From the sequence record PX436236.1: 64,000 nucleotides of DNA. The stretch is one strand, 5' to 3'. Numbering within the stretch: position 1 is the stretch's first letter; each line of letters starts with the position of its first letter. The stretch is from a phage. The position numbers and the translations under genes are program-made. Shown here one piece after another: positions 4,080-62,781 of this stretch. Under the pieces are notes generated by a model. It had not been told where the DNA came from. It saw only the letters and a program-made list of their open reading frames with translations, and ran no database searches.

Positions 4080-4928
4080 TTAATAAATGTAATCGTATAT
4101 AATACCAGCTTCTAAAGCGGTGCGATGAATAATTCGACCATTACGAGATTCTTGTACATCAACCTCTGAATAGTCGGTAATCATTTTTTGAAGTGTATAT
4201 CGGTGCAAATAATACGGGCTATCCGGGTCATCTGTTTTCCAGTCTTTGCCTTCAAGAGTCATTTTCTGGATTTCATCCATAACCCACCAACCAACCCAAA
4301 TATATGCTGAATTACGAACAGGGAGTGGATGAACGTAAGGTAATTCGCCATCCGGAACCGGTGCGACTTTAGCCGTGACTGTTACATTACCGGTTTTTGT
4401 GACAGTCGCCGGGTTATAATCAGTCGCCGAAACCACAACAGAAACTTCAATAACCTGTGAACCTTCAGTGCTTGTATCGATTGCTAGAGTATCCGTGGTG
4501 CCAACTACAGGAGAACCGTCTTTCTTCCAAGAATAGGCAAAAGTAGCACCAGCAGGAGCGCCGACCACATTCGCTTTAAAAGAAGCTGGAGTGCCTTCCG
4601 GAACATTAATCGAAGCTGGGGTTAATGTCACAGAAACACCGGAAATGGTTTTATTCTGGATAGTTAAAGTTGTTTCGGCTTCAGCTGTTTCTGGTTCGCC
4701 GTCCGCCGGTGTAGTTGTTGCAACAACTTTAATAGTCTTGCTGCCTGCCGGGCCAACAGCAACATAATCCATTGCAGCAGTCACAGAAGATTGAGGAACG
4801 CCATCAACAGTCCAGACAAATGATTCAGTACCTTCAGCTGCAGCACCGGAACCGGTCGCAGTGAAATTGGTTGTTGCTCCAATAACGGCCGTAGCCGCCA
4901 AAGGAGCCATATCTACGGTATAAGCCAT
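4080..4928 (-). CDS. hoc: Hoc outer capsid protein (Ig-like domains)
   Basis: 282 aa; Thr/Val-rich Ig-like repeats plus C-terminal capsid-binding-like region; T4 position between rnlB and inh. Confidence 0.7.
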   Translation of the reverse strand: MAYTVDMAPLAATAVIGATTNFTATGSGAAAEGTESFVWTVDGVPQSSVTAAMDYVAVGPAGSKTIKVVATTTPADGEPETAEAETTLTIQNKTISGVSVTLTPASINVPEGTPASFKANVVGAPAGATFAYSWKKDGSPVVGTTDTLAIDTSTEGSQVIEVSVVVSATDYNPATVTKTGNVTVTAKVAPVPDGELPYVHPLPVRNSAYIWVGWWVMDEIQKMTLEGKDWKTDDPDSPYYLHRYTLQKMITDYSEVDVQESRNGRIIHRTALEAGIIYDYIY

Positions 4929-57099: not shown

Positions 57100-57416
57100 C
57101 CTTTAACACGTTGCCATAAAGTTTTCTGTTGAGCTTTATTTACACCAATTGAACGAATAACAGGTTGTGATTCCTGGTATTCTTTGTAGTCTGCTTGGTA
57201 CACCTCACCAGCAGCATCAACGAAAGAACCTAATGCCGCCATAAAAGTATCACGAGAACCGTATGGAGCGCCTGAATCATTACGGACGATTAAGTATTTA
57301 CCGACTTTAACCTTTATGATACTTCCAAGATAAGCACCGTGATACCAGATATCCCAACCTTCTTGGGTGTTTTCTTTACAACGCTGTAATTCACACAGAA
57401 TATTAAACTTGTTCAT
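57087..57416 (-). CDS. Hypothetical protein (motA.1 region)
   Basis: 109 aa ORF immediately downstream of motA. Confidence 0.5.
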   Translation of the reverse strand: MNKFNILCELQRCKENTQEGWDIWYHGAYLGSIIKVKVGKYLIVRNDSGAPYGSRDTFMAALGSFVDAAGEVYQADYKEYQESQPVIRSIGVNKAQQKTLWQRVKGWFK

Positions 57417-57430
57417 AATAATTTCCTCAG

Positions 57431-58066
57431 TCAGATAATTGCGTTGGTTACGGTTTTGATAACTTCAGATGATACGTTTTGGAAGTCGATATAAGTATTC
57501 TTACCACCAGTCTTAATCTTAACATCAAGATTCAAGGAAGTAAACACTTGTTTTTCTTTATCAGTCATATTATAACCGAAGATGCGCATCATTCCGTCAC
57601 GACGGACTTCAATTTGACGAATACCATTGGTACGTTTGGCGAATCGAACTTCAAGGTTGCTACGGTTTTCAGCAATTTCACGAATCTCGATACGGTCTTC
57701 TAATAAAGCTTTAACTTCATCAGCCAGTGTTACCATTTCAGGAGTAACACCACGTGAACTACGCGTTTTACGTTTTTCCAACATCTCTGGGGCATTTTCA
57801 GAAGCGAACAGGTCGGCAGCTTTTTGAACTAGGTCCATTGCTTCACCTGTAGCCACTAGTCCGTCACCAGATTTTTCGATGAATCCTTTCTTAATTAATA
57901 CACCGATATTAGAGTTAACTACCGCAGCACTAAATTGCTCACTCAGGGCTTCACGGACTTCGCCTGAAGTGATGAAGTTATGCTTGATGATATGTACTAA
58001 GATCGAAGCCGTTTTTTCATTCAGGGCGTCTTCAGAAGCTTTGATGATATAAGTAATTTTAGACAT
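57431..58066 (-). CDS. motA: Middle transcription activator MotA
   Basis: 211 aa, same length as T4 MotA; near-identical N-terminus (MSKITYIIKAS.D.LNEKTA...NSNIGVLIKKG..EKSGDGL) and RTNGIR/RIFGY blocks. Confidence 0.9.
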   Translation of the reverse strand: MSKITYIIKASEDALNEKTASILVHIIKHNFITSGEVREALSEQFSAAVVNSNIGVLIKKGFIEKSGDGLVATGEAMDLVQKAADLFASENAPEMLEKRKTRSSRGVTPEMVTLADEVKALLEDRIEIREIAENRSNLEVRFAKRTNGIRQIEVRRDGMMRIFGYNMTDKEKQVFTSLNLDVKIKTGGKNTYIDFQNVSSEVIKTVTNAII

Positions 58067-58101
58067 TTTGTATCTCCGATAACCATTTATTTGATAGGTC
58101 T

Positions 58102-58130
58102 ATAGTATCATGTTTAAAGCAGATGTAAAC
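58102..58130 (-). promoter_or_regulatory. Early promoter cassette for motA
   Basis: Minus-strand GTTTAC-N17-TACTAT. Confidence 0.55.
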
Positions 58131-58154
58131 TCTTTTTGCACTAAACCTAAAAAA

Positions 58155-58170
58155 GGAACCCGAAGGTTCC
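58155..58170 (-). terminator. Intrinsic terminator with UUCG loop
   Basis: mRNA-sense GGAACC-UUCG-GGUUCC followed by UUUUUU. Confidence 0.7.
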
Positions 58171-58275
58171 TTACTTTTTAAAGTTGGCTGCTATTAAACC
58201 TATAGCTAAGCCTGTCGCCAGGCCTAGGATAACAGCAAAGATACAGAGTAACAAGAACTCGACTCCAAGGCTCAT
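58171..58275 (-). CDS. Small hydrophobic peptide downstream of gene 52
   Basis: 34 aa single-TM-like ORF (MSLGVEFLLLCIFAVILGLATGLAIGLIAANFKK); ATGA overlap with the gp52 stop. Confidence 0.4.
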   Translation of the reverse strand: MSLGVEFLLLCIFAVILGLATGLAIGLIAANFKK

Positions 58276-59600
58276 AGAGCCTCCAAATCTTTAACATACT
58301 CAGTTACAACATCAGTGGTTTTCCAATATTGATGCTCTTCTTTCTTAGCCTTGGCTTCCAAAGCCAGTTTCTTGGCTTCATCAGAAGTGATATGGAAAAT
58401 GTTCATGGCCACTAGTTTATCAGCGTATTCGCCATAGACTTTATTACTAGCCAATTCTTCGGTTAAAACCTTGCGAGTCTTACCTTGGATAACCACTACA
58501 CCATCAATAACATCTTTGATGAATGTGGCTTTAGCCAATGCCAGTTTGAAAGCTTCTTCAGTTTCGATGATTTTACCATCAATACGTTTCTGTACAAAGG
58601 TCTTACGGACCTCAACGAAATCACGAATCAGTTCAACTGCATCTTCGTAAACCTTAAGTTTACCTTTTTCATTAATGACGGTCAGGTTTTGTGAACGACG
58701 TTCGATTAACCCGAAGTCCTTCATGATTTTTTCGTGCTTCTTGTTTTCTTCAGTAGGCAATTCATATTCTTTACGAATCTTAACCTTGAAGCCGAAACCG
58801 TTCTCGTCACAATCATCATCATATGTGATATACCCTTTGTCTTCCAGAGGGTCTAATATCTTGGCCACATACGTTTCACGGTCGTATTTGTATGGGATTT
58901 CCGTGATATGCATTTGGGTTCGAGATGTGAACTTATAGGTTCCACGAATCTCATAACTACCAGGTTCAATCTCAACAACATCACCGCGGAATTCAGGATA
59001 AGCCACTTTAGGTTTGGTTACGCGTTTTTCCTGAAGAACTTGCAATACAGTTTTCTTAACAGAATCAAAACTATGAGGAAGAATATTAGTTGCATAACCA
59101 GTTGCAATACCGGAAACGCCATTAAGAAGAACAGTAGGAATAATAGGCAGATAAAAAGCCGGTGGCTTATGTTCAACATCCGCATGAACCGGAGCATATT
59201 CTGTGTCCTTATAAACTTTTGCAAAGTTACTTCCAATACGAGCAAAAATATAACGAGAGGCTGCAGCTTTTTGAACCAATCGGGAGCCAAAGTTACCTTG
59301 ACCGTCTAACAATGGATAGTTGTTGTTCCATGTGTTAGCCATCAAAGCCCCTGCTTCCTGAGCAGAACCTTCACCGTGGTGATATCCGAGGTCGGCTACA
59401 CCACCAGCGATAGAAGCCAGTTTGTGGAATTTTTCTTTATTACCACGAGCCATATCAAGACAACGAGCCACTACAAAACGTTGTACAGGTTTAAAGCCAT
59501 CAATCATATTTGGAATGGCTCGGTTTTCGACAGTATACATTGCATAAGCCAATGCTTCGTTGTCGATAATACTTTTTAAACCACGAGATGTTAATTCCAT
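58272..59600 (-). CDS. 52: DNA topoisomerase II medium subunit gp52
   Basis: 442 aa, same length as T4 gp52; type II topoisomerase A-subunit-like N-terminus. Confidence 0.85.
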   Translation of the reverse strand: MELTSRGLKSIIDNEALAYAMYTVENRAIPNMIDGFKPVQRFVVARCLDMARGNKEKFHKLASIAGGVADLGYHHGEGSAQEAGALMANTWNNNYPLLDGQGNFGSRLVQKAAASRYIFARIGSNFAKVYKDTEYAPVHADVEHKPPAFYLPIIPTVLLNGVSGIATGYATNILPHSFDSVKKTVLQVLQEKRVTKPKVAYPEFRGDVVEIEPGSYEIRGTYKFTSRTQMHITEIPYKYDRETYVAKILDPLEDKGYITYDDDCDENGFGFKVKIRKEYELPTEENKKHEKIMKDFGLIERRSQNLTVINEKGKLKVYEDAVELIRDFVEVRKTFVQKRIDGKIIETEEAFKLALAKATFIKDVIDGVVVIQGKTRKVLTEELASNKVYGEYADKLVAMNIFHITSDEAKKLALEAKAKKEEHQYWKTTDVVTEYVKDLEAL

Positions 59601-59604
59601 AATT

Positions 59605-59745
59605 TTACCATACTAGTGAATGAATAGCCATAATAACATCGGAAATAAAAAGCACAACTTGGATAAGTCCGAACATTACTCCGTAATACAGCGCTACTAA
59701 TAATGCAGCAAGGGCTAAAGAGTAGCCCAAGATTTTATTAATCAT
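59605..59745 (-). CDS. Small membrane protein
   Basis: 46 aa hydrophobic ORF from internal ATG; overlaps the upstream small ORF stop. Confidence 0.4.
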   Translation of the reverse strand: MINKILGYSLALAALLVALYYGVMFGLIQVVLFISDVIMAIHSLVW

Positions 59746-59899
59746 TTTTAATCGTCTTAAGTAAACCGACAAAAGTAGAAAGAACCCAACCAATAAGCAG
59801 AAAACTTAAGAATATCGGACCAGGGGTCCACACACCTAAAAAGAAGCAAACTGAACAGACTATAGCCATAATAAGTTCAATAAAAACTAGGATAACCAT
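59738..59899 (-). CDS. Ac-like small membrane protein
   Basis: 53 aa hydrophobic ORF below the track cutoff with RBS GAGGAAAAT, in the T4 ac position (T4 Ac is about 51 aa). Confidence 0.45.
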   Translation of the reverse strand: MVILVFIELIMAIVCSVCFFLGVWTPGPIFLSFLLIGWVLSTFVGLLKTIKND

Positions 59900-59909
59900 A
59901 TTTTCCTCA

Positions 59910-59987
59910 TTAGCGTCCGAAGACGCCTTTAGTTTTAAGATTGTTACGATAGAACTGCATCACATGCTCGTTATGGAAATTACTCAT
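59910..59987 (-). CDS. stp: Stp peptide
   Basis: 25 aa [28 protein letters not shown], matching remembered T4 Stp; TAATG overlap with the ndd stop. Confidence 0.75.
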
Positions 59988-60436
59988 TAGTAAGCCTGCA
60001 GGATGAATTTAAAGTTATCAGCCAACATACGGTTCATTTCTTCCAGTGTCTGGAGGTCGGAACTATGATTACGAGTGAAAGCCATTGCAATTTGACCCTT
60101 ACCAAAACCTGTAGTCAGGGGTTTCATCTTAGAAGCCGGTACATAAAGAACTTCATACACAACACCGTTCACTGCCATAGTGCGAGCTGATTGAGAACGT
60201 TTCTTACGAATGTTAGCCACGATACCGTCGAGCCCTTGGGCCGAACGTTGATTACCGACATAAAAACGAGCCGCTACGACACGAGAATCAGCACCACCTT
60301 TAACAAAGAAGTAGAAGCCTGGTTGAGCAGAGATTTCTTTAGAAGGTTTACCATTTTGGTATTCACCGTTCTTAACATAAGCAACAGTAGTAGCACCAGC
60401 AGACAGAACGTTACGGCGAGTCATATAAGTATTCAT
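59987..60436 (-). CDS. ndd: Nucleoid disruption protein Ndd
   Basis: 149 aa; C-terminal half near-identical to remembered T4 Ndd ([56 protein letters not shown]). Confidence 0.9.
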
Positions 60437-60485
60437 ATCAATTTCCTCAGTAGATTAATGTTTTGTTATCCAGTCAACGAGAACC

Positions 60486-60514
60486 ATTATAACATGATTC
60501 TCGAGGTTGTAAAC
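60486..60514 (-). promoter_or_regulatory. Early promoter for ndd
   Basis: Minus-strand GTTTAC-N17-TATAAT (perfect -10). Confidence 0.6.
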
Positions 60515-60858
60515 TATTTTTGTAGCTGTTCTAAAATAAATCCGCTGGTGTAAAGGCTTGCATTATACAGGCGGTCAAGAGATAACGAATCCAATCCATA
60601 AGCTTCACGAATTGCATTGATAACACTTTCATAACTTGTATAATAAACGTCACGATAATCGCGGTCCATAGTCATGCGGAACTTAATAAATTTGTAGAAA
60701 CCAGTTTCAGGGTCCTGATAGAATGCAAATTCTGCAGACGCTAAATTTTTAAGGTTAACAGCTTTTGTGTCACCCGAATAACTTAAATCAAATGTTTCTG
60801 ACATGCTAATCTGTTTAAAGAACATAATGTTGCGATTACCAAAAAATAATTTAGACAT
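60514..60858 (-). CDS. Hypothetical protein (ndd.1 region)
   Basis: 114 aa from internal ATG with RBS AAGGAAAA. Confidence 0.5.
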   Translation of the reverse strand: MSKLFFGNRNIMFFKQISMSETFDLSYSGDTKAVNLKNLASAEFAFYQDPETGFYKFIKFRMTMDRDYRDVYYTSYESVINAIREAYGLDSLSLDRLYNASLYTSGFILEQLQK

Positions 60859-60868
60859 AATATTTTCC

Positions 60869-61081
60869 TTATTCAGCGTCAACAGAAATAGCCATCAGTT
60901 CATCAACAGTAAGGCATTGCACACTAGGGCCTACACAAAAACGCTTAGTTGAATCATAAAGGTCTGTAGCATTAACAGGTTGTAATTCAGTCCCAACTTG
61001 CAAAGGAGAAATGCGAATCAGTTGTTGGCCATTATGCAATACAAAGCTCTCGCCGACTACCACATCTTTAAAAAGTTTCAT
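60869..61081 (-). CDS. Hypothetical protein
   Basis: 70 aa from internal ATG with conserved leader GAGGAAAATATT. Confidence 0.5.
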   Translation of the reverse strand: MKLFKDVVVGESFVLHNGQQLIRISPLQVGTELQPVNATDLYDSTKRFCVGPSVQCLTVDELMAISVDAE

Positions 61082-61091
61082 AATATTTTCC

Positions 61092-61208
61092 TCAGAAGTT
61101 AAAGAATACACGTACATGGTCAATCATAAAAACGATTGGGAAAATGCTCAATACCATTAACAACACAAACATGTTCCAAATTGCTTTAAGTAAGTTTTTC
61201 ATAATCAT
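61092..61208 (-). CDS. Small hydrophobic peptide
   Basis: 38 aa ORF (MIMKNLLKAIWNMFVLLMVLSIFPIVFMIDHVRVFFNF) with RBS GGAG; below the track cutoff. Confidence 0.35.
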   Translation of the reverse strand: MIMKNLLKAIWNMFVLLMVLSIFPIVFMIDHVRVFFNF

Positions 61209-61228
61209 CTCCATTAGTTGATAGGTCT

Positions 61229-61257
61229 ATAATACCATGATTAATGGAGATGTATAC
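61229..61257 (-). promoter_or_regulatory. Early promoter cassette
   Basis: Minus-strand GTATAC-N17-TATTAT in the conserved GTTGATAGGTCTAT motif. Confidence 0.5.
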
Positions 61258-61347
61258 TGATTTATGCCAATTTCCACAACAATAAACTAAAACATACGCA
61301 AATCACTGGGATACAGGCCATCCAAATAAGGCACCACATTTTGCTAC

Positions 61348-61614
61348 TCAAAACACCACCTCTTTTATCTCAATTAATCCCCTGTGCAATGCAGTACGAA
61401 GGTCATAAAGAATATCTATGCCGTCAACATTATCCAGTTTTCCATCAATAAGCTTTTCTAAATCTTCCTTTGATGCGATTAAGGGACGGAGAAATTTACA
61501 TTCAGAAAGAGATAACTCTGTAGTAACATCACCACCTTCACCTGATGCATCATACATAGCGGCAACAACCATACCTGTAACTTTGTGTTTAGCGTAATAT
61601 AATTTGATATCCAT
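61348..61614 (-). CDS. Hypothetical protein
   Basis: 88 aa ORF with conserved early leader. Confidence 0.5.
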   Translation of the reverse strand: MDIKLYYAKHKVTGMVVAAMYDASGEGGDVTTELSLSECKFLRPLIASKEDLEKLIDGKLDNVDGIDILYDLRTALHRGLIEIKEVVF

Positions 61615-61642
61615 TTTGTTCTCCTCATTAGTTGATAGGAAG

Positions 61643-61671
61643 ATAGTAACACCGTCCGTGGCATTATAACT
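61643..61671 (-). promoter_or_regulatory. Degenerate early promoter cassette
   Basis: Conserved TACTAT -10 and leader, but the -35 region is replaced by AGTTAT/TATAAT-like sequence. Confidence 0.35.
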
Positions 61672-61898
61672 TAAGCAACAGAATGTTTTGGATGCTGTTT
61701 AGCCCAACCTACTAAAAATTCCCAATACTTTTCGATAGAACCGTAAAGATTAATTACTGTAGGAGTGGTAACTTCAGTCCAATCTTTTTGAACATTACCC
61801 GTTTTAATATTGGTAAGCTTGTGAAACACTTTACCATTCTCAAATTTATATTCTTCGATTTTACGATTGATTGCTTTAACATAAGTAATAGAAGTCAT
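61671..61898 (-). CDS. Hypothetical protein
   Basis: 75 aa from internal ATG with conserved leader GAGGAAAATATT. Confidence 0.5.
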   Translation of the reverse strand: MTSITYVKAINRKIEEYKFENGKVFHKLTNIKTGNVQKDWTEVTTPTVINLYGSIEKYWEFLVGWAKQHPKHSVA

Positions 61899-61929
61899 AA
61901 TATTTTCCTCTCGTGTAGTTGATAGGAAG

Positions 61930-61959
61930 ATAGTAACACCATCCATGGCGTATGTAAAT
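61930..61959 (-). promoter_or_regulatory. Early promoter cassette
   Basis: Minus-strand ATTTAC-N18-TACTAT. Confidence 0.5.
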
Positions 61960-61973
61960 ACTATTTTAAAAAT

Positions 61974-62531
61974 TTATAAGGCGAGATACCAGCCGTTGTA
62001 ATTACTCTTACGGACTAGCTTTGTGATGGCTTCTCTGTCACCAGAGAACTTAGGAGTGAACAGGACGTCGCCTGCCTCATTTACTGAAGTGTCGAATATA
62101 ATTATACAGTCTGCAACTTTATGATTCAGGAGCGGTCCCAGGTTAATCCCTGTTCCATACGGGAAGTCACCAGAGTATCCTGTAGTGCAGGAAATCCACT
62201 TAGAATCTGATTGGTGGGTCTTAACCTCTACACGAAGTCCACAGTACATAGGATGCGCTAAAACATCCCAGGCATAGGTATAAGGGTCATCATGGTCTTC
62301 CAGACCACTGTTAACGTATCCTTTCAACCAATCAGCCACCATATACTCGGCATACGTTGCAATGACACACCGAGTCAATACTTCTTTCTTATCTTGGGAC
62401 GGGTCTTGGCTTAAGGAATACAATACGGTGTCCTTAATCTTGACCTTCATTTCACCTGTTAAATCAGATGTCTTCAGGGTAAATGTCGGCATCTTCGACA
62501 GTCGAACTAGTCCCGGATTTGACGGATTCAT
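61974..62531 (-). CDS. denB: Endonuclease IV DenB-like
   Basis: Start at the ATG with RBS GGTGGTGA gives 185 aa, equal to T4 DenB length; position between ndd and rIIB; sequence not verified from memory. Confidence 0.55.
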   Translation of the reverse strand: MNPSNPGLVRLSKMPTFTLKTSDLTGEMKVKIKDTVLYSLSQDPSQDKKEVLTRCVIATYAEYMVADWLKGYVNSGLEDHDDPYTYAWDVLAHPMYCGLRVEVKTHQSDSKWISCTTGYSGDFPYGTGINLGPLLNHKVADCIIIFDTSVNEAGDVLFTPKFSGDREAITKLVRKSNYNGWYLAL

Positions 62532-62781
62532 AATCACCACCAATATACAATTCTTCGACGTGAACATTACCAAAATAGATACGAGAGTTTTCACTCAATT
62601 TACTGTGGTCTAATTTTTTAAGGTTTTCAATTGAATCAAAAATCACGTCTGCGGCGAAAAGATGGCCCGTGGCTTTATCGGATTTGATTACATCTACACA
62701 ATAAACCTTATCTACCACATGGTTACCTTGGAGATATGAATTTTTGATATCTTCGTCGCCAACATTCATATAATTAATCAT
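62464..62781 (-). CDS. Hypothetical protein
   Basis: 105 aa from ATG with RBS GGTGAG; overlaps the proposed denB start by about 68 nt. Confidence 0.45.
   Translation of the reverse strand: MINYMNVGDEDIKNSYLQGNHVVDKVYCVDVIKSDKATGHLFAADVIFDSIENLKKLDHSKLSENSRIYFGNVHVEELYIGGDYESVKSGTSSTVEDADIYPEDI

What the first reader, a model, noticed from the sequence alone, without database searches (positions are those of the whole stretch)
58171..59899. Cluster of very small hydrophobic peptides around gene 52
Three short single-TM-like ORFs flank topoisomerase gene 52 (34 aa at 58171-58275, 46 aa at 59605-59745, 53 aa at 59738-59899), and a fourth lies at 61092-61208 (38 aa). All are on the coding strand with RBS or start/stop coupling, and all but one are below the ORF-track cutoff. 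T4 has one comparable gene here (ac). Such micro-proteins commonly modulate membrane transporters or host envelope functions and are routinely missed in annotation.
Basis: seen in the sequence. Interest (0 to 1): 0.35.

Follow-up and report, generated by a model that had tools for sequence, protein, structure and literature searches.

The report
Known T4-type small membrane protein genes
The tiny hydrophobic reading frames around topoisomerase gene 52 are real, conserved early phage genes for one- or two-helix membrane peptides, but they belong to gene families already annotated in T4 and its relatives, and their functions are still unknown.

Summary
The window is a Dhakavirus (T4-like coliphage, 98.4% identical to phage QL01). 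All four ORFs exist at the stated coordinates on the coding (minus) strand. All four are under purifying selection (dN/dS about 0.05-0.2), and QL01 annotates all four. Identities:
- 59605-59745 is gp52.1 (Pfam DUF7396, 44/46 identical to T4).
- 61092-61202/61214 is Ndd.4.
- 59738-59899 is PHROG family 9347, a predicted two-helix hairpin. It sits in the T4 ac slot but is not Ac, because phage JS98 carries both.
- 58171-58275 is PHROG family 16377. It sits in the motA.1 slot but is unrelated to MotA.1.

T4 has the same cluster (motA.1, 52.1, ac, stp, ndd.2-ndd.6), not only ac.

An early promoter, a chain of start/stop coupling (p53, then 52.1, then 52, then p34) and a terminator define one operon.

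The likely role, inferred only, is early insertion into the host inner membrane to modulate host membrane complexes, as proposed for Ac and the AcrAB-TolC pump.

Verdict: a real cluster that is already known, and of low interest.

The parts
61262..61351 (-). Ndd.6-like micro-gene: 29 aa, TTG start that overlaps the stop of the upstream 88-aa ORF, one hydrophobic helix. Not in the finding and not annotated in QL01.
   Evidence: phrog_8851 at E=4e-16, the same family as T4 Ndd.6. tblastn to T4 Ndd.6 gives E=7e-7. The start codon alternates between TTG and ATG at the same position among relatives. GAGG lies 7 nt upstream.
61229..61256 (-). Early-type promoter-like site (TATACA-16-TATTAT, with an extended TG) in front of the Ndd.4-like gene
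   Evidence: Consensus scan only.
61092..61214 (-). Ndd.4 homologue, with one transmembrane helix. Three in-frame ATGs give 40, 38 or 36 aa; the most likely start is 61202 (36 aa).
   Evidence: phrog_3098 at E=5e-21, with the profile starting at residue 5 of the 40-aa form. Alignment to T4 Ndd.4 has z=16.5. Found in 595 phage records. dN/dS is 0.09-0.2. GGAG lies 6 nt before the ATG at 61202.
60486..60513 (-). Early promoter-like site (TTTACA-16-TATAAT, 11 of 12 matches, extended TG) upstream of ndd. Probable start of the transcription unit ndd-stp-p53-52.1-52-p34.
   Evidence: Consensus scan. The T4 orthologues are classed as early transcripts.
59910..59987 (-). stp, 25 aa, activator of the host PrrC anticodon nuclease. 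Not hydrophobic, not in the finding, and not annotated in QL01.
   Evidence: 25 of 25 residues identical to T4 Stp. Pfam PF08133 at E=2e-20, 72 bits against a cutoff of 25. Its ATG overlaps the ndd stop (TAATG).
59738..59899 (-). p53, 53 aa, predicted two-helix membrane hairpin of PHROG family 9347. It occupies the slot that ac has in T4 but is not an Ac homologue.
   Evidence: phrog_9347 at E=6e-27, with no hit to the Ac family phrog_2501. hhalign against the Ac family gives 0.6% probability. JS98 carries both families. AlphaFold2 predicts helices 2-21 and 28-52 at pLDDT 75. About 57 Dhakavirus records plus more distant copies in Enterobacter, Edwardsiella, Kosakonia and Serratia phages. dN/dS is 0.11-0.2 against the Karam-like copies.
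59605..59745 (-). gp52.1, 46 aa, very hydrophobic. No Shine-Dalgarno sequence; its start overlaps the p53 stop by 8 nt.
   Evidence: Pfam DUF7396 at E=6e-22, 78 bits against a cutoff of 27. phrog_3595. 44 of 46 residues identical to T4 gp52.1, against 81% for gp52 itself. 716 phage records. Directly upstream of gene 52 in 35 of 44 loci. dN/dS is 0.05 against T4.
58272..59600 (-). Gene 52, the medium subunit of topoisomerase II. No Shine-Dalgarno sequence; it starts 4 nt after the 52.1 stop.
   Evidence: Annotation of QL01 and T4. Sequence context.
58171..58275 (-). p34, 34 aa, one transmembrane helix with a C-terminal KK, PHROG family 16377. It occupies the motA.1 slot but is unrelated to MotA.1.
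   Evidence: phrog_16377 at E=2e-21, with no hit to the MotA.1 family phrog_3487. hhalign against the MotA.1 family gives 0.8% probability. 55 phage records at 94-100% identity, plus diverged copies in L018 and L019. dN/dS is 0.05. ATGA overlap with the gene 52 stop plus GGAGG.
58153..58172 (-). Intrinsic terminator hairpin AAGGAACC-TTCG-GGTTCCTT followed by a T run. It begins inside the p34 stop codon and ends the transcription unit.
   Evidence: Terminator scan. Sequence.
58102..58129 (-). Promoter-like site TTTACA-16-TACTAT upstream of motA (57431-58066)
   Evidence: Consensus scan.

Best explanation
The ORFs are genuine early genes of a T4-like phage (genus Dhakavirus). They encode very small inner-membrane proteins and form part of the known cluster of predicted membrane-protein genes between ndd and motA.

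Identities:
- gp52.1 (46 aa)
- Ndd.4 (36-40 aa)
- an Ndd.6 homologue (29 aa)
- p53 (PHROG 9347, two-helix hairpin) and p34 (PHROG 16377, single helix). These two families are centred on Dhakavirus. They occupy the positions that ac and motA.1 hold in T4 but are not homologous to them.

Shown by the sequence: an early sigma-70-type promoter-like site at 60513-60486 precedes ndd, stp, p53, 52.1, 52 and p34. A hairpin terminator at 58172-58153 follows p34. p53 has its own ribosome-binding site. 52.1 and gene 52 have none and start on or 4 nt after the preceding stop. p34 starts on the gene 52 stop (ATGA).

Inferred for expression: these genes are transcribed as one unit, and ribosomes pass along the chain p53, 52.1, 52, p34.

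Inferred for function (about 0.4 confidence for this step): within minutes of infection the peptides insert into the host inner membrane. [quoted passage not shown] They are dispensable accessory functions that are swapped as small cassettes between related phages.
For: Identity and family membership:
- The locus is 98.4% identical to QL01, which annotates all four ORFs.
- T4 has the same gene order.
- Pfam and PHROG matches.
- Pairwise alignments to the T4 proteins.

Coding status:
- dN/dS is 0.05-0.2, with significant excess of synonymous change.
- The frames are intact in 55 to 716 phage records.

Membrane character:
- GRAVY is 1.4-1.8, with uncharged runs of 21-39 residues.
- AlphaFold2 predicts helices.

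Operon and coupling.

Early expression of the orthologues: T4 motA.1, 52.1, ac, stp and ndd.2 to ndd.6 are classed as early transcripts (PMC9697503 Table S2).

Functional analogy: expressing T4 Ac sensitises E. coli to acriflavine, and an interaction with AcrAB-TolC has been proposed (bioRxiv 10.1101/2025.06.30.662393; PMC13250531).

Cassette behaviour:
- JS98 and IME341 carry extra micro-genes (an Ac-like 49-aa ORF and a 57-aa ORF) that the window lacks.
- Exchange mediated by promoter/stem-loop (PeSL) elements has been described for ndd.4 and ndd.5 (PMC4122927).
Against: - There is no direct evidence of translation or membrane location for any of these peptides. The T4 orthologues were not detected in the proteome data set (Class_P = NA).
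- The Ac and AcrAB-TolC mechanism is itself only a proposal in a preprint.
- p53 and p34 are not Ac or MotA.1 homologues, so the analogy rests on size, hydrophobicity and position.
- gp52.1 is much more conserved than its neighbours (96% against 81% for gp52, 63% for Ndd and about 49% for MotA). That could point to a phage-internal partner rather than a host target.
Confidence: 0.8

Rival explanations
1. Topoisomerase-linked role. gp52.1 and the peptide coupled to the gene 52 stop would serve gene 52 itself. They could act as upstream and downstream coupling ORFs that set gp52 translation, or as membrane tethers or partners of the gp39/gp52/gp60 topoisomerase.
For: - Gene 52 and 52.1 have no Shine-Dalgarno sequence and depend on the preceding stop.
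- gp52.1 lies directly upstream of gene 52 in 35 of 44 loci.
- A hydrophobic ORF overlaps the gene 52 stop in 31 of 44 loci, although it belongs to at least 8 unrelated sequence families.
- gp52.1 is more conserved than gp52.
- Mutations in topoisomerase genes 39 and 60 also give acridine resistance (cited).
Against: - Coupling alone does not explain strong amino-acid conservation (dN/dS 0.05).
- More distant T4-like loci (gp52 identity 63% or less) and some closer ones (L010, L047, L021-L023) lack the downstream peptide, and some lack gp52.1.
- Phage vB_EcoM_005 appears to have lost most of 52.1.
- From my own knowledge, the purified T4 topoisomerase is described as gp39, gp52 and gp60 only.
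Confidence: 0.12
2. p53 is a strongly diverged orthologue or functional replacement of Ac, and makes infected cells sensitive to acridines in the same way.
For: - It occupies the same slot, with the same 8-nt overlap on the 52.1 start, a similar length (53 against 51 aa) and a similar two-helix prediction (Ac prediction).
- An iterative HMM search started from Ac drifted into the p53 family through one hit at E=0.001.
Against: - Pairwise z-score is 0.8.
- The two belong to different PHROG families.
- hhalign gives 0.6% probability, no better than against unrelated membrane-peptide families.
- JS98 and L020 carry both an Ac-family gene (phrog_2501, E=4e-20) and p53.
- The shared C-terminal 'ND' is imposed by the overlap with the 52.1 start.
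Confidence: 0.1
3. The peptides act in phage-phage or phage-defence conflict at the membrane. Possible roles are superinfection exclusion, blocking a membrane-bound defence system, or tuning lysis timing. In this reading they do not act on transport.
For: - Early expression of the orthologues.
- The genes are accessory, and their presence or absence varies within one genus.
- The neighbour stp interacts with a host defence nuclease.
- From my own knowledge, other small T4 membrane proteins (Imm, Sp, RI) have such roles.
Against: There is no sequence relationship to any of those proteins. No test of this idea was possible with these tools.
Confidence: 0.15
4. The ORFs are chance open frames in T-rich spacer DNA and are not translated.
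For: They are short, and codons with T at the second position give hydrophobic residues. The T4 orthologues were not seen by mass spectrometry.
Against: - Synonymous substitutions are in strong excess.
- The frames are conserved across genera.
- Ribosome-binding sites or coupling are present.
- All five gap-filling hydrophobic ORFs lie on the coding strand.
- Mutations in the T4 member ac have a genetic phenotype.
Confidence: 0.02

Closest known systems
T4 gp52.1 (UniProt P18922; Pfam DUF7396; phrog_3595)
   Same: The 46-aa ORF at 59605-59745 is a member. 44 of 46 residues are identical, the position 4 nt upstream of gene 52 is the same, and so is the 8-nt overlap with the preceding micro-gene.
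   Different: Two conservative substitutions only. The function is unknown in T4 as well.
T4 Ndd.4 and Ndd.6 (phrog_3098, phrog_8851)
   Same: The ORFs at 61092-61214 and 61262-61351 are homologues, lie in the same region upstream of ndd and ndd.1, and each has a single hydrophobic helix.
   Different: Identity to T4 is 57% and about 45%. The Ndd.6 homologue uses a TTG start here. T4's ndd.2, ndd.2a, ndd.3 and ndd.5 have no counterpart in the window.
T4 Ac (acridine sensitivity protein, 51 aa; phrog_2501)
   Same: p53 has the same slot directly upstream of 52.1, the same overlap, a similar length and a predicted two-helix hairpin. It may therefore work in a similar way, as a small membrane hairpin acting on a host membrane complex.
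   Different: There is no detectable sequence relationship. p53 co-occurs with a true Ac homologue in JS98, so it is a separate family. The window has no Ac gene.
T4 MotA.1 (49 aa; phrog_3487)
   Same: p34 has the same position, with an ATGA overlap on the gene 52 stop. It is the last gene before the terminator and the motA promoter, and it is hydrophobic.
   Different: Unrelated sequence (hhalign 0.8%). It is shorter, with one helix and a C-terminal KK. It is restricted to Dhakavirus and two more distant loci.
E. coli AcrZ, a 49-aa single-helix protein that binds the AcrB efflux pump (own knowledge: Hobbs et al. 2012, PNAS)
   Same: Size class and architecture. It shows that a small membrane peptide can tune a transporter.
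   Different: A host protein, not a phage one. No sequence similarity was found to any solved structure chain. This is an analogy only.

Membership tests
gp52.1 / Pfam DUF7396 (phrog_3595) | Match to the family profile above the curated cutoff | tested here: met
   PF24129 at E=5.9e-22, 78 bits against a cutoff of 27, over the full length 1-46. phrog_3595 at E=1.4e-25.
gp52.1 / Pfam DUF7396 (phrog_3595) | Position immediately upstream of topoisomerase gene 52 on the same strand | tested here: met
   The gap to gene 52 is 4 nt in the window, as in T4. The same position holds in 35 of 44 loci.
Ndd.4 (phrog_3098) | Profile match and similarity to T4 Ndd.4 | tested here: met
   phrog_3098 at E=5.2e-21. 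Alignment to T4 Ndd.4 has z=16.5. QL01 annotates it as Ndd.4.
Ndd.6 (phrog_8851) | Profile match and similarity to T4 Ndd.6 | tested here: met
   phrog_8851 at E=4.3e-16 for the window ORF and 1.6e-17 for T4 Ndd.6. tblastn gives E=7e-7.
Ac, acridine sensitivity protein (phrog_2501) | Sequence homology of p53 to T4 Ac | tested here: not met
   No phrog_2501 hit at E<=1. Pairwise z=0.8. hhalign gives 0.6% probability. JS98 has both families.
Ac, acridine sensitivity protein (phrog_2501) | Position directly upstream of 52.1 with an overlapping stop/start, and a two-helix membrane hairpin | tested here: met
   The 8-nt overlap ATGATTAA is the same as in T4. AlphaFold2 predicts helices 2-21 and 28-52.
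Ac, acridine sensitivity protein (phrog_2501) | Confers sensitivity of phage growth to acriflavine | not testable with these tools
   Needs plating of QL01-type phage and a p53 deletion mutant on acriflavine.
MotA.1 (phrog_3487) | Sequence homology of p34 to T4 MotA.1 | tested here: not met
   No phrog_3487 hit. MotA.1 is not among the three best-scoring T4 peptides for p34, and the best of those has z=1.8. hhalign gives 0.8% probability.
MotA.1 (phrog_3487) | ATGA overlap with the gene 52 stop, and last gene before the terminator and motA | tested here: met
Stp, anticodon nuclease activator (Pfam PF08133) | Profile match above the cutoff, and identity to T4 Stp | tested here: met
   E=2e-20, 72 bits against a cutoff of 25. 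25 of 25 residues identical.
Small inner-membrane proteins (general class) | Translation and membrane insertion shown experimentally | not testable with these tools
   Only hydrophobicity and helix predictions are available. The T4 orthologues were not detected by mass spectrometry.

The most novel reading that the evidence does not exclude
The micro-genes flanking gene 52 form a functional unit with the topoisomerase. In this reading, a translationally coupled chain (hairpin peptide, then gp52.1, then gp52, then a C-terminal-side transmembrane peptide) delivers or tethers the topoisomerase or replication machinery at the inner membrane. The downstream slot is refilled again and again by unrelated hydrophobic peptides: at least 8 families in 31 of 44 loci. 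Alternatively, p53 is a new, non-homologous phage inhibitor of a host efflux pump that replaces Ac in phages lacking it.
Probability: 0.1. Interest if true: 0.5.

Novelty: already known. Interest (0 to 1): 0.15.

Why it matters
As features, these genes are already in GenBank records and in the PHROG and Pfam families, so nothing new is found here. Three points may still be useful:

1. Annotation. stp and the Ndd.6 homologue are unannotated in the nearest relative, QL01. gp52.1 and p34 are missing from about half of the related records sampled. The 53-aa gene should not be labelled 'ac'.

2. A testable prediction. QL01-type phages lack Ac, so they should be acriflavine-resistant unless p53 substitutes for it.

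3. An open question. gp52.1 is among the most conserved proteins of the locus, yet it has no known role. T4-type phages invest in many early membrane micro-proteins, and only Ac has a phenotype.

Tried and rejected
- Iterative HMM searches on ORFs from 47 loci merged the Ac and p53 families through one borderline hit (E=0.001). I treated this as profile drift on hydrophobic composition. hhalign between strictly defined families gave 0.6% probability, which is no better than between clearly unrelated peptide families.
- hhalign between all pairs of the eight micro-protein families gave at most 7% probability. There is therefore no evidence that the cluster arose by duplication of one gene.
- I searched the whole window for Ac, the JS98 57-aa protein, the 43-aa micro-protein of the Karam-like loci L007-L009 and L042 (labelled K43), MotA.1, Ndd.2, Ndd.2a, Ndd.3 and Ndd.5. 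Only chance-level hits appeared.
- PDB sequence searches for gp52.1, p53 and p34 gave nothing below E=0.1. NCBIfam gave nothing.
- An Rfam scan of 57300-62700 gave one chance hit at E=0.79, so there is no sign of an RNA element that would explain the conservation.
- Literature searches for 52.1, motA.1, ndd.4, ndd.6 and DUF7396 found no functional study. The T4 genome review (PMC150520) is not held in the library.
- The partial tblastn match of p34 in phage IME540 looked like a truncation. The record annotates a full 105-nt CDS there.
- I did not run fold searches on the models, because one or two isolated helices give meaningless matches.
Full report
**What the window is**

The stretch 57400-61700 is 98.4% identical over its full length to Escherichia phage QL01 (Straboviridae, Tevenvirinae, Dhakavirus). 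It matches 761 T4-like phage records at lower identity. All genes between about 56 and 62.6 kb are on the minus strand.

In the direction of transcription (high to low coordinates), the order is:
- an 88-aa ORF
- a 29-aa ORF, 61262-61351
- the 36-40-aa ORF, 61092-61214
- ndd.1, 60869-61123
- a 122-aa ORF
- ndd, 59987-60436
- a 25-aa ORF, 59910-59987
- the 53-aa ORF, 59738-59899
- the 46-aa ORF, 59605-59745
- gene 52, 58272-59600
- the 34-aa ORF, 58171-58275
- a terminator hairpin
- motA, 57431-58066

**Check of the observation**

Their translation signals are:
- p34 starts on the gene 52 stop (ATGA) and has GGAGG 4 nt upstream.
- The 46-aa ORF has no Shine-Dalgarno sequence and overlaps the stop of the 53-aa ORF by 8 nt.
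- The 53-aa ORF has GAGG 5 nt upstream.
- The fourth ORF has three in-frame ATGs. Only the third, at 61202 (36 aa), has a well-spaced GGAG.
- Gene 52 itself has no Shine-Dalgarno sequence and starts 4 nt after the 46-aa ORF's stop.

The third ATG of the fourth ORF is also the start that QL01 annotates, and it is where the PHROG profile begins.

The cluster is not a chance effect.
- The window holds 292 ATG-ORFs of 25-80 aa. Eleven have GRAVY >= 1.4. Only five of those lie in gaps between long ORFs.
- All five are on the minus strand between 58.1 and 61.4 kb. Shuffled sequence gives 2.1 +/- 1.4 such ORFs per window over all six frames.

**Are they genes?**

I fetched 44 loci around gene 52 from IMG/VR, with gp52 identity from 47% to 99%. 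To these I added T4, QL01 and IME341.

Codon-level comparison shows purifying selection in every case:
- p34: 9 synonymous against 2 non-synonymous differences to L006 (dN/dS 0.05, binomial P = 1e-4).
- gp52.1: 13 against 3 to T4 (dN/dS 0.05, P = 2e-6).
- p53: dN/dS 0.11-0.21 against three of the four Karam-like copies, and 0.50 against the fourth (L009).
- Ndd.4: dN/dS 0.09-0.2.

Among very close Dhakaviruses, p53 shows too few changes to judge (3 synonymous, 6 non-synonymous).

The frames are intact in 55 phage records for p34, about 57 plus distant copies for p53, 716 for gp52.1 and 595 for Ndd.4.

**What they are**

- The 46-aa ORF is gp52.1. It is 44/46 identical to T4 gp52.1. It matches Pfam DUF7396 at 78 bits against a cutoff of 27 and phrog_3595.
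- The 36-40-aa ORF is an Ndd.4 homologue (phrog_3098, E=5e-21; z=16.5 to T4 Ndd.4).
- The 53-aa ORF is phrog_9347, and the 34-aa ORF is phrog_16377.
- QL01 annotates all four: QL01_262, QL01_264 '52.1', QL01_265 'putative membrane protein' and QL01_269 'Ndd.4 ... inner membrane'.
- T4 annotates motA.1, 52.1, ac, stp and ndd.2 to ndd.6 in the same places.

The statement that T4 has one comparable gene here is therefore wrong. A preprint on Ac, citing the T4 genome review, describes this as one of three T4 gene clusters for predicted membrane proteins.

**p53 is not Ac, and p34 is not MotA.1**

p53 sits exactly where ac sits in T4, with the same ATGATTAA overlap on the 52.1 start. That overlap also forces the shared C-terminal 'ND'. 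Even so, the two are not related by sequence:
- Alignment with T4 Ac scores no better than chance (z=0.8).
- The two belong to different PHROG families (9347 and 2501).
- Profile-profile comparison gives 0.6% probability. That is the same range as comparisons with plainly unrelated peptide families.
- JS98 (L004) and L020 carry both a 49-aa Ac-family gene (phrog_2501, E=4e-20) and p53.

An iterative HMM search did merge the two families through one hit at E=0.001. I regard this as drift on hydrophobic composition.

Likewise, p34 shows no relationship to MotA.1. The window has no Ac-family gene at all.

- 59910-59987 encodes Stp, 25 of 25 residues identical to T4 Stp (PF08133, E=2e-20).
- 61262-61351 encodes a 29-aa Ndd.6 homologue (phrog_8851, E=4e-16). 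Its start codon is TTG here and ATG at the same position in JS98, T4 and others, with GAGG 7 nt upstream.

Neither is annotated in QL01.

**Architecture of the peptides**

- p34, Ndd.4 and Ndd.6 each have one uncharged run of 21-26 residues.
- For p34, the C-terminal KK suggests a cytoplasmic C-terminus. This is an inference from the positive-inside rule.
- p53 has a 39-residue uncharged run broken by the conserved GVWxP motif. AlphaFold2, run on a 7-sequence alignment, predicts helices 2-21 and 28-52 at mean pLDDT 75. It is therefore a hairpin, not single-span.
- gp52.1 is predicted as one continuous helix, residues 2-45, at pLDDT 96 from a single sequence. That is longer than a bilayer is thick, so its topology is open.
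- No solved structure, NCBIfam family or Rfam family matches.

**Expression logic**

- An early-type promoter-like site (TTTACA-16-TATAAT, 60513-60486) precedes ndd.
- A second such site (61256-61229) precedes the Ndd.4 gene.
- A hairpin with a UUCG loop followed by a T run (58172-58153) begins inside the p34 stop codon.
- The motA promoter follows.

The inferred unit is ndd-stp-p53-52.1-52-p34, with ribosomes coupled along p53, 52.1, 52 and p34.

In T4, the orthologous transcripts are classed as early, but the proteins were not detected by mass spectrometry (PMC9697503, Table S2).

**Comparative pattern**

- gp52.1 lies directly upstream of gene 52 in 35 of 44 loci with a complete gene 52.
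- It is far more conserved than its neighbours. Identity to T4 is 96%, against 81% for gp52, 63% for Ndd and about 49% for MotA.
- A hydrophobic ORF overlaps the gene 52 stop in 31 of 44 loci. It belongs to at least eight sequence families with no detectable relationship.
- It is absent in some close loci and in all loci with gp52 identity of 63% or less.
- The stretch between ndd and 52.1 differs by whole micro-genes even within Dhakavirus. This fits the cassette exchange at promoter/stem-loop elements described for ndd.4 and ndd.5 (PMC4122927).

**How it most likely works**

Shown: these are conserved coding sequences for very hydrophobic peptides. They lie in a stretch bounded by an early promoter-like site and a terminator-like hairpin, with stop/start overlaps or short gaps between successive genes.

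Inferred: the stretch is transcribed as one early unit. The peptides are made in the first minutes of infection, insert into the inner membrane, and act by binding larger membrane complexes.

The only member of the T4 cluster with a phenotype is Ac. Its loss makes T4 acriflavine-resistant, and its expression sensitises E. coli to acriflavine and ampicillin. A preprint proposes inhibition of AcrAB-TolC, and a 2026 paper repeats this as an assumption.

I give about 0.4 to 'modulators of host membrane complexes' for p53, p34, gp52.1 and Ndd.4. The rivals are a topoisomerase-linked role for gp52.1 and p34, a role in exclusion or defence conflicts, p53 as a functional Ac replacement, and non-coding chance ORFs. 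Each is weighed in the rival-explanation entries.

**Verdict**

The features are already known and annotated gene families of unknown function, so interest is low. The remaining open points are:
- the function of the strongly conserved gp52.1;
- the recurring coupled peptide at the end of gene 52;
- whether p53 replaces Ac in phages that lack it.

Noticed in passing
window 59910-59987 (-): stp gene, 25 aa, identical to T4 Stp over all 25 residues (T4 has one more residue, Q). It is not annotated in the nearest relative, QL01. JS98 and several other loci carry a diverged Stp type ([26 protein letters not shown]), so this small gene appears to be exchanged between lineages.
   Followed up: partly
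window 61262-61351 (-): Unannotated Ndd.6 homologue with a TTG start that overlaps the stop of the upstream 88-aa ORF. The same codon position is ATG in JS98, T4 and others.
   Followed up: yes
L038 2744-3060 (phage vB_EcoM_005), aligned with window 59560-59920: A deletion of about 100 nt removes most of 52.1 and fuses the end of the p53 gene to the 52.1 tail in another frame, giving a 70-aa product. The start of gene 52 also differs. Either this is a natural 52.1 knockout in a viable phage, or it is an assembly problem: the record is 155 kb against about 170 kb for relatives.
   Followed up: partly
L004 2153-2556 (JS98) and IME341, compared with window 59899-59987: Relatives in the same genus carry extra micro-genes between ndd and p53. 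One is a 57-aa two-helix-like protein (phrog_5941) and another is a 49-aa Ac-family protein. The window lacks both. Presence or absence of micro-genes therefore varies within Dhakavirus.
   Followed up: partly
window 59605-59745 compared with neighbours: gp52.1 is 96% identical to T4, while the flanking gp52, Ndd and MotA are 81%, 63% and about 49% identical. This is unusually strong constraint for a 46-aa protein of unknown function.
   Followed up: partly
window 58090-58112 and 61217-61240: The motif GATAGGTCTATA(A/G)TA(C/T)CATG recurs just downstream of the -10 element of the motA promoter-like site and of the site upstream of the Ndd.4 gene. It may be part of the repeated promoter/stem-loop (PeSL) elements described for T4-like phages.
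   Followed up: no
L007-L009 and L042, about 4463-4549: In the Karam/PEi20-like loci, the MotA.1 homologue is followed by a further coupled 25-26-aa hydrophobic ORF (MTFYGLFVGMIFFLWIIYLVIEYFF) before the next gene.
   Followed up: no
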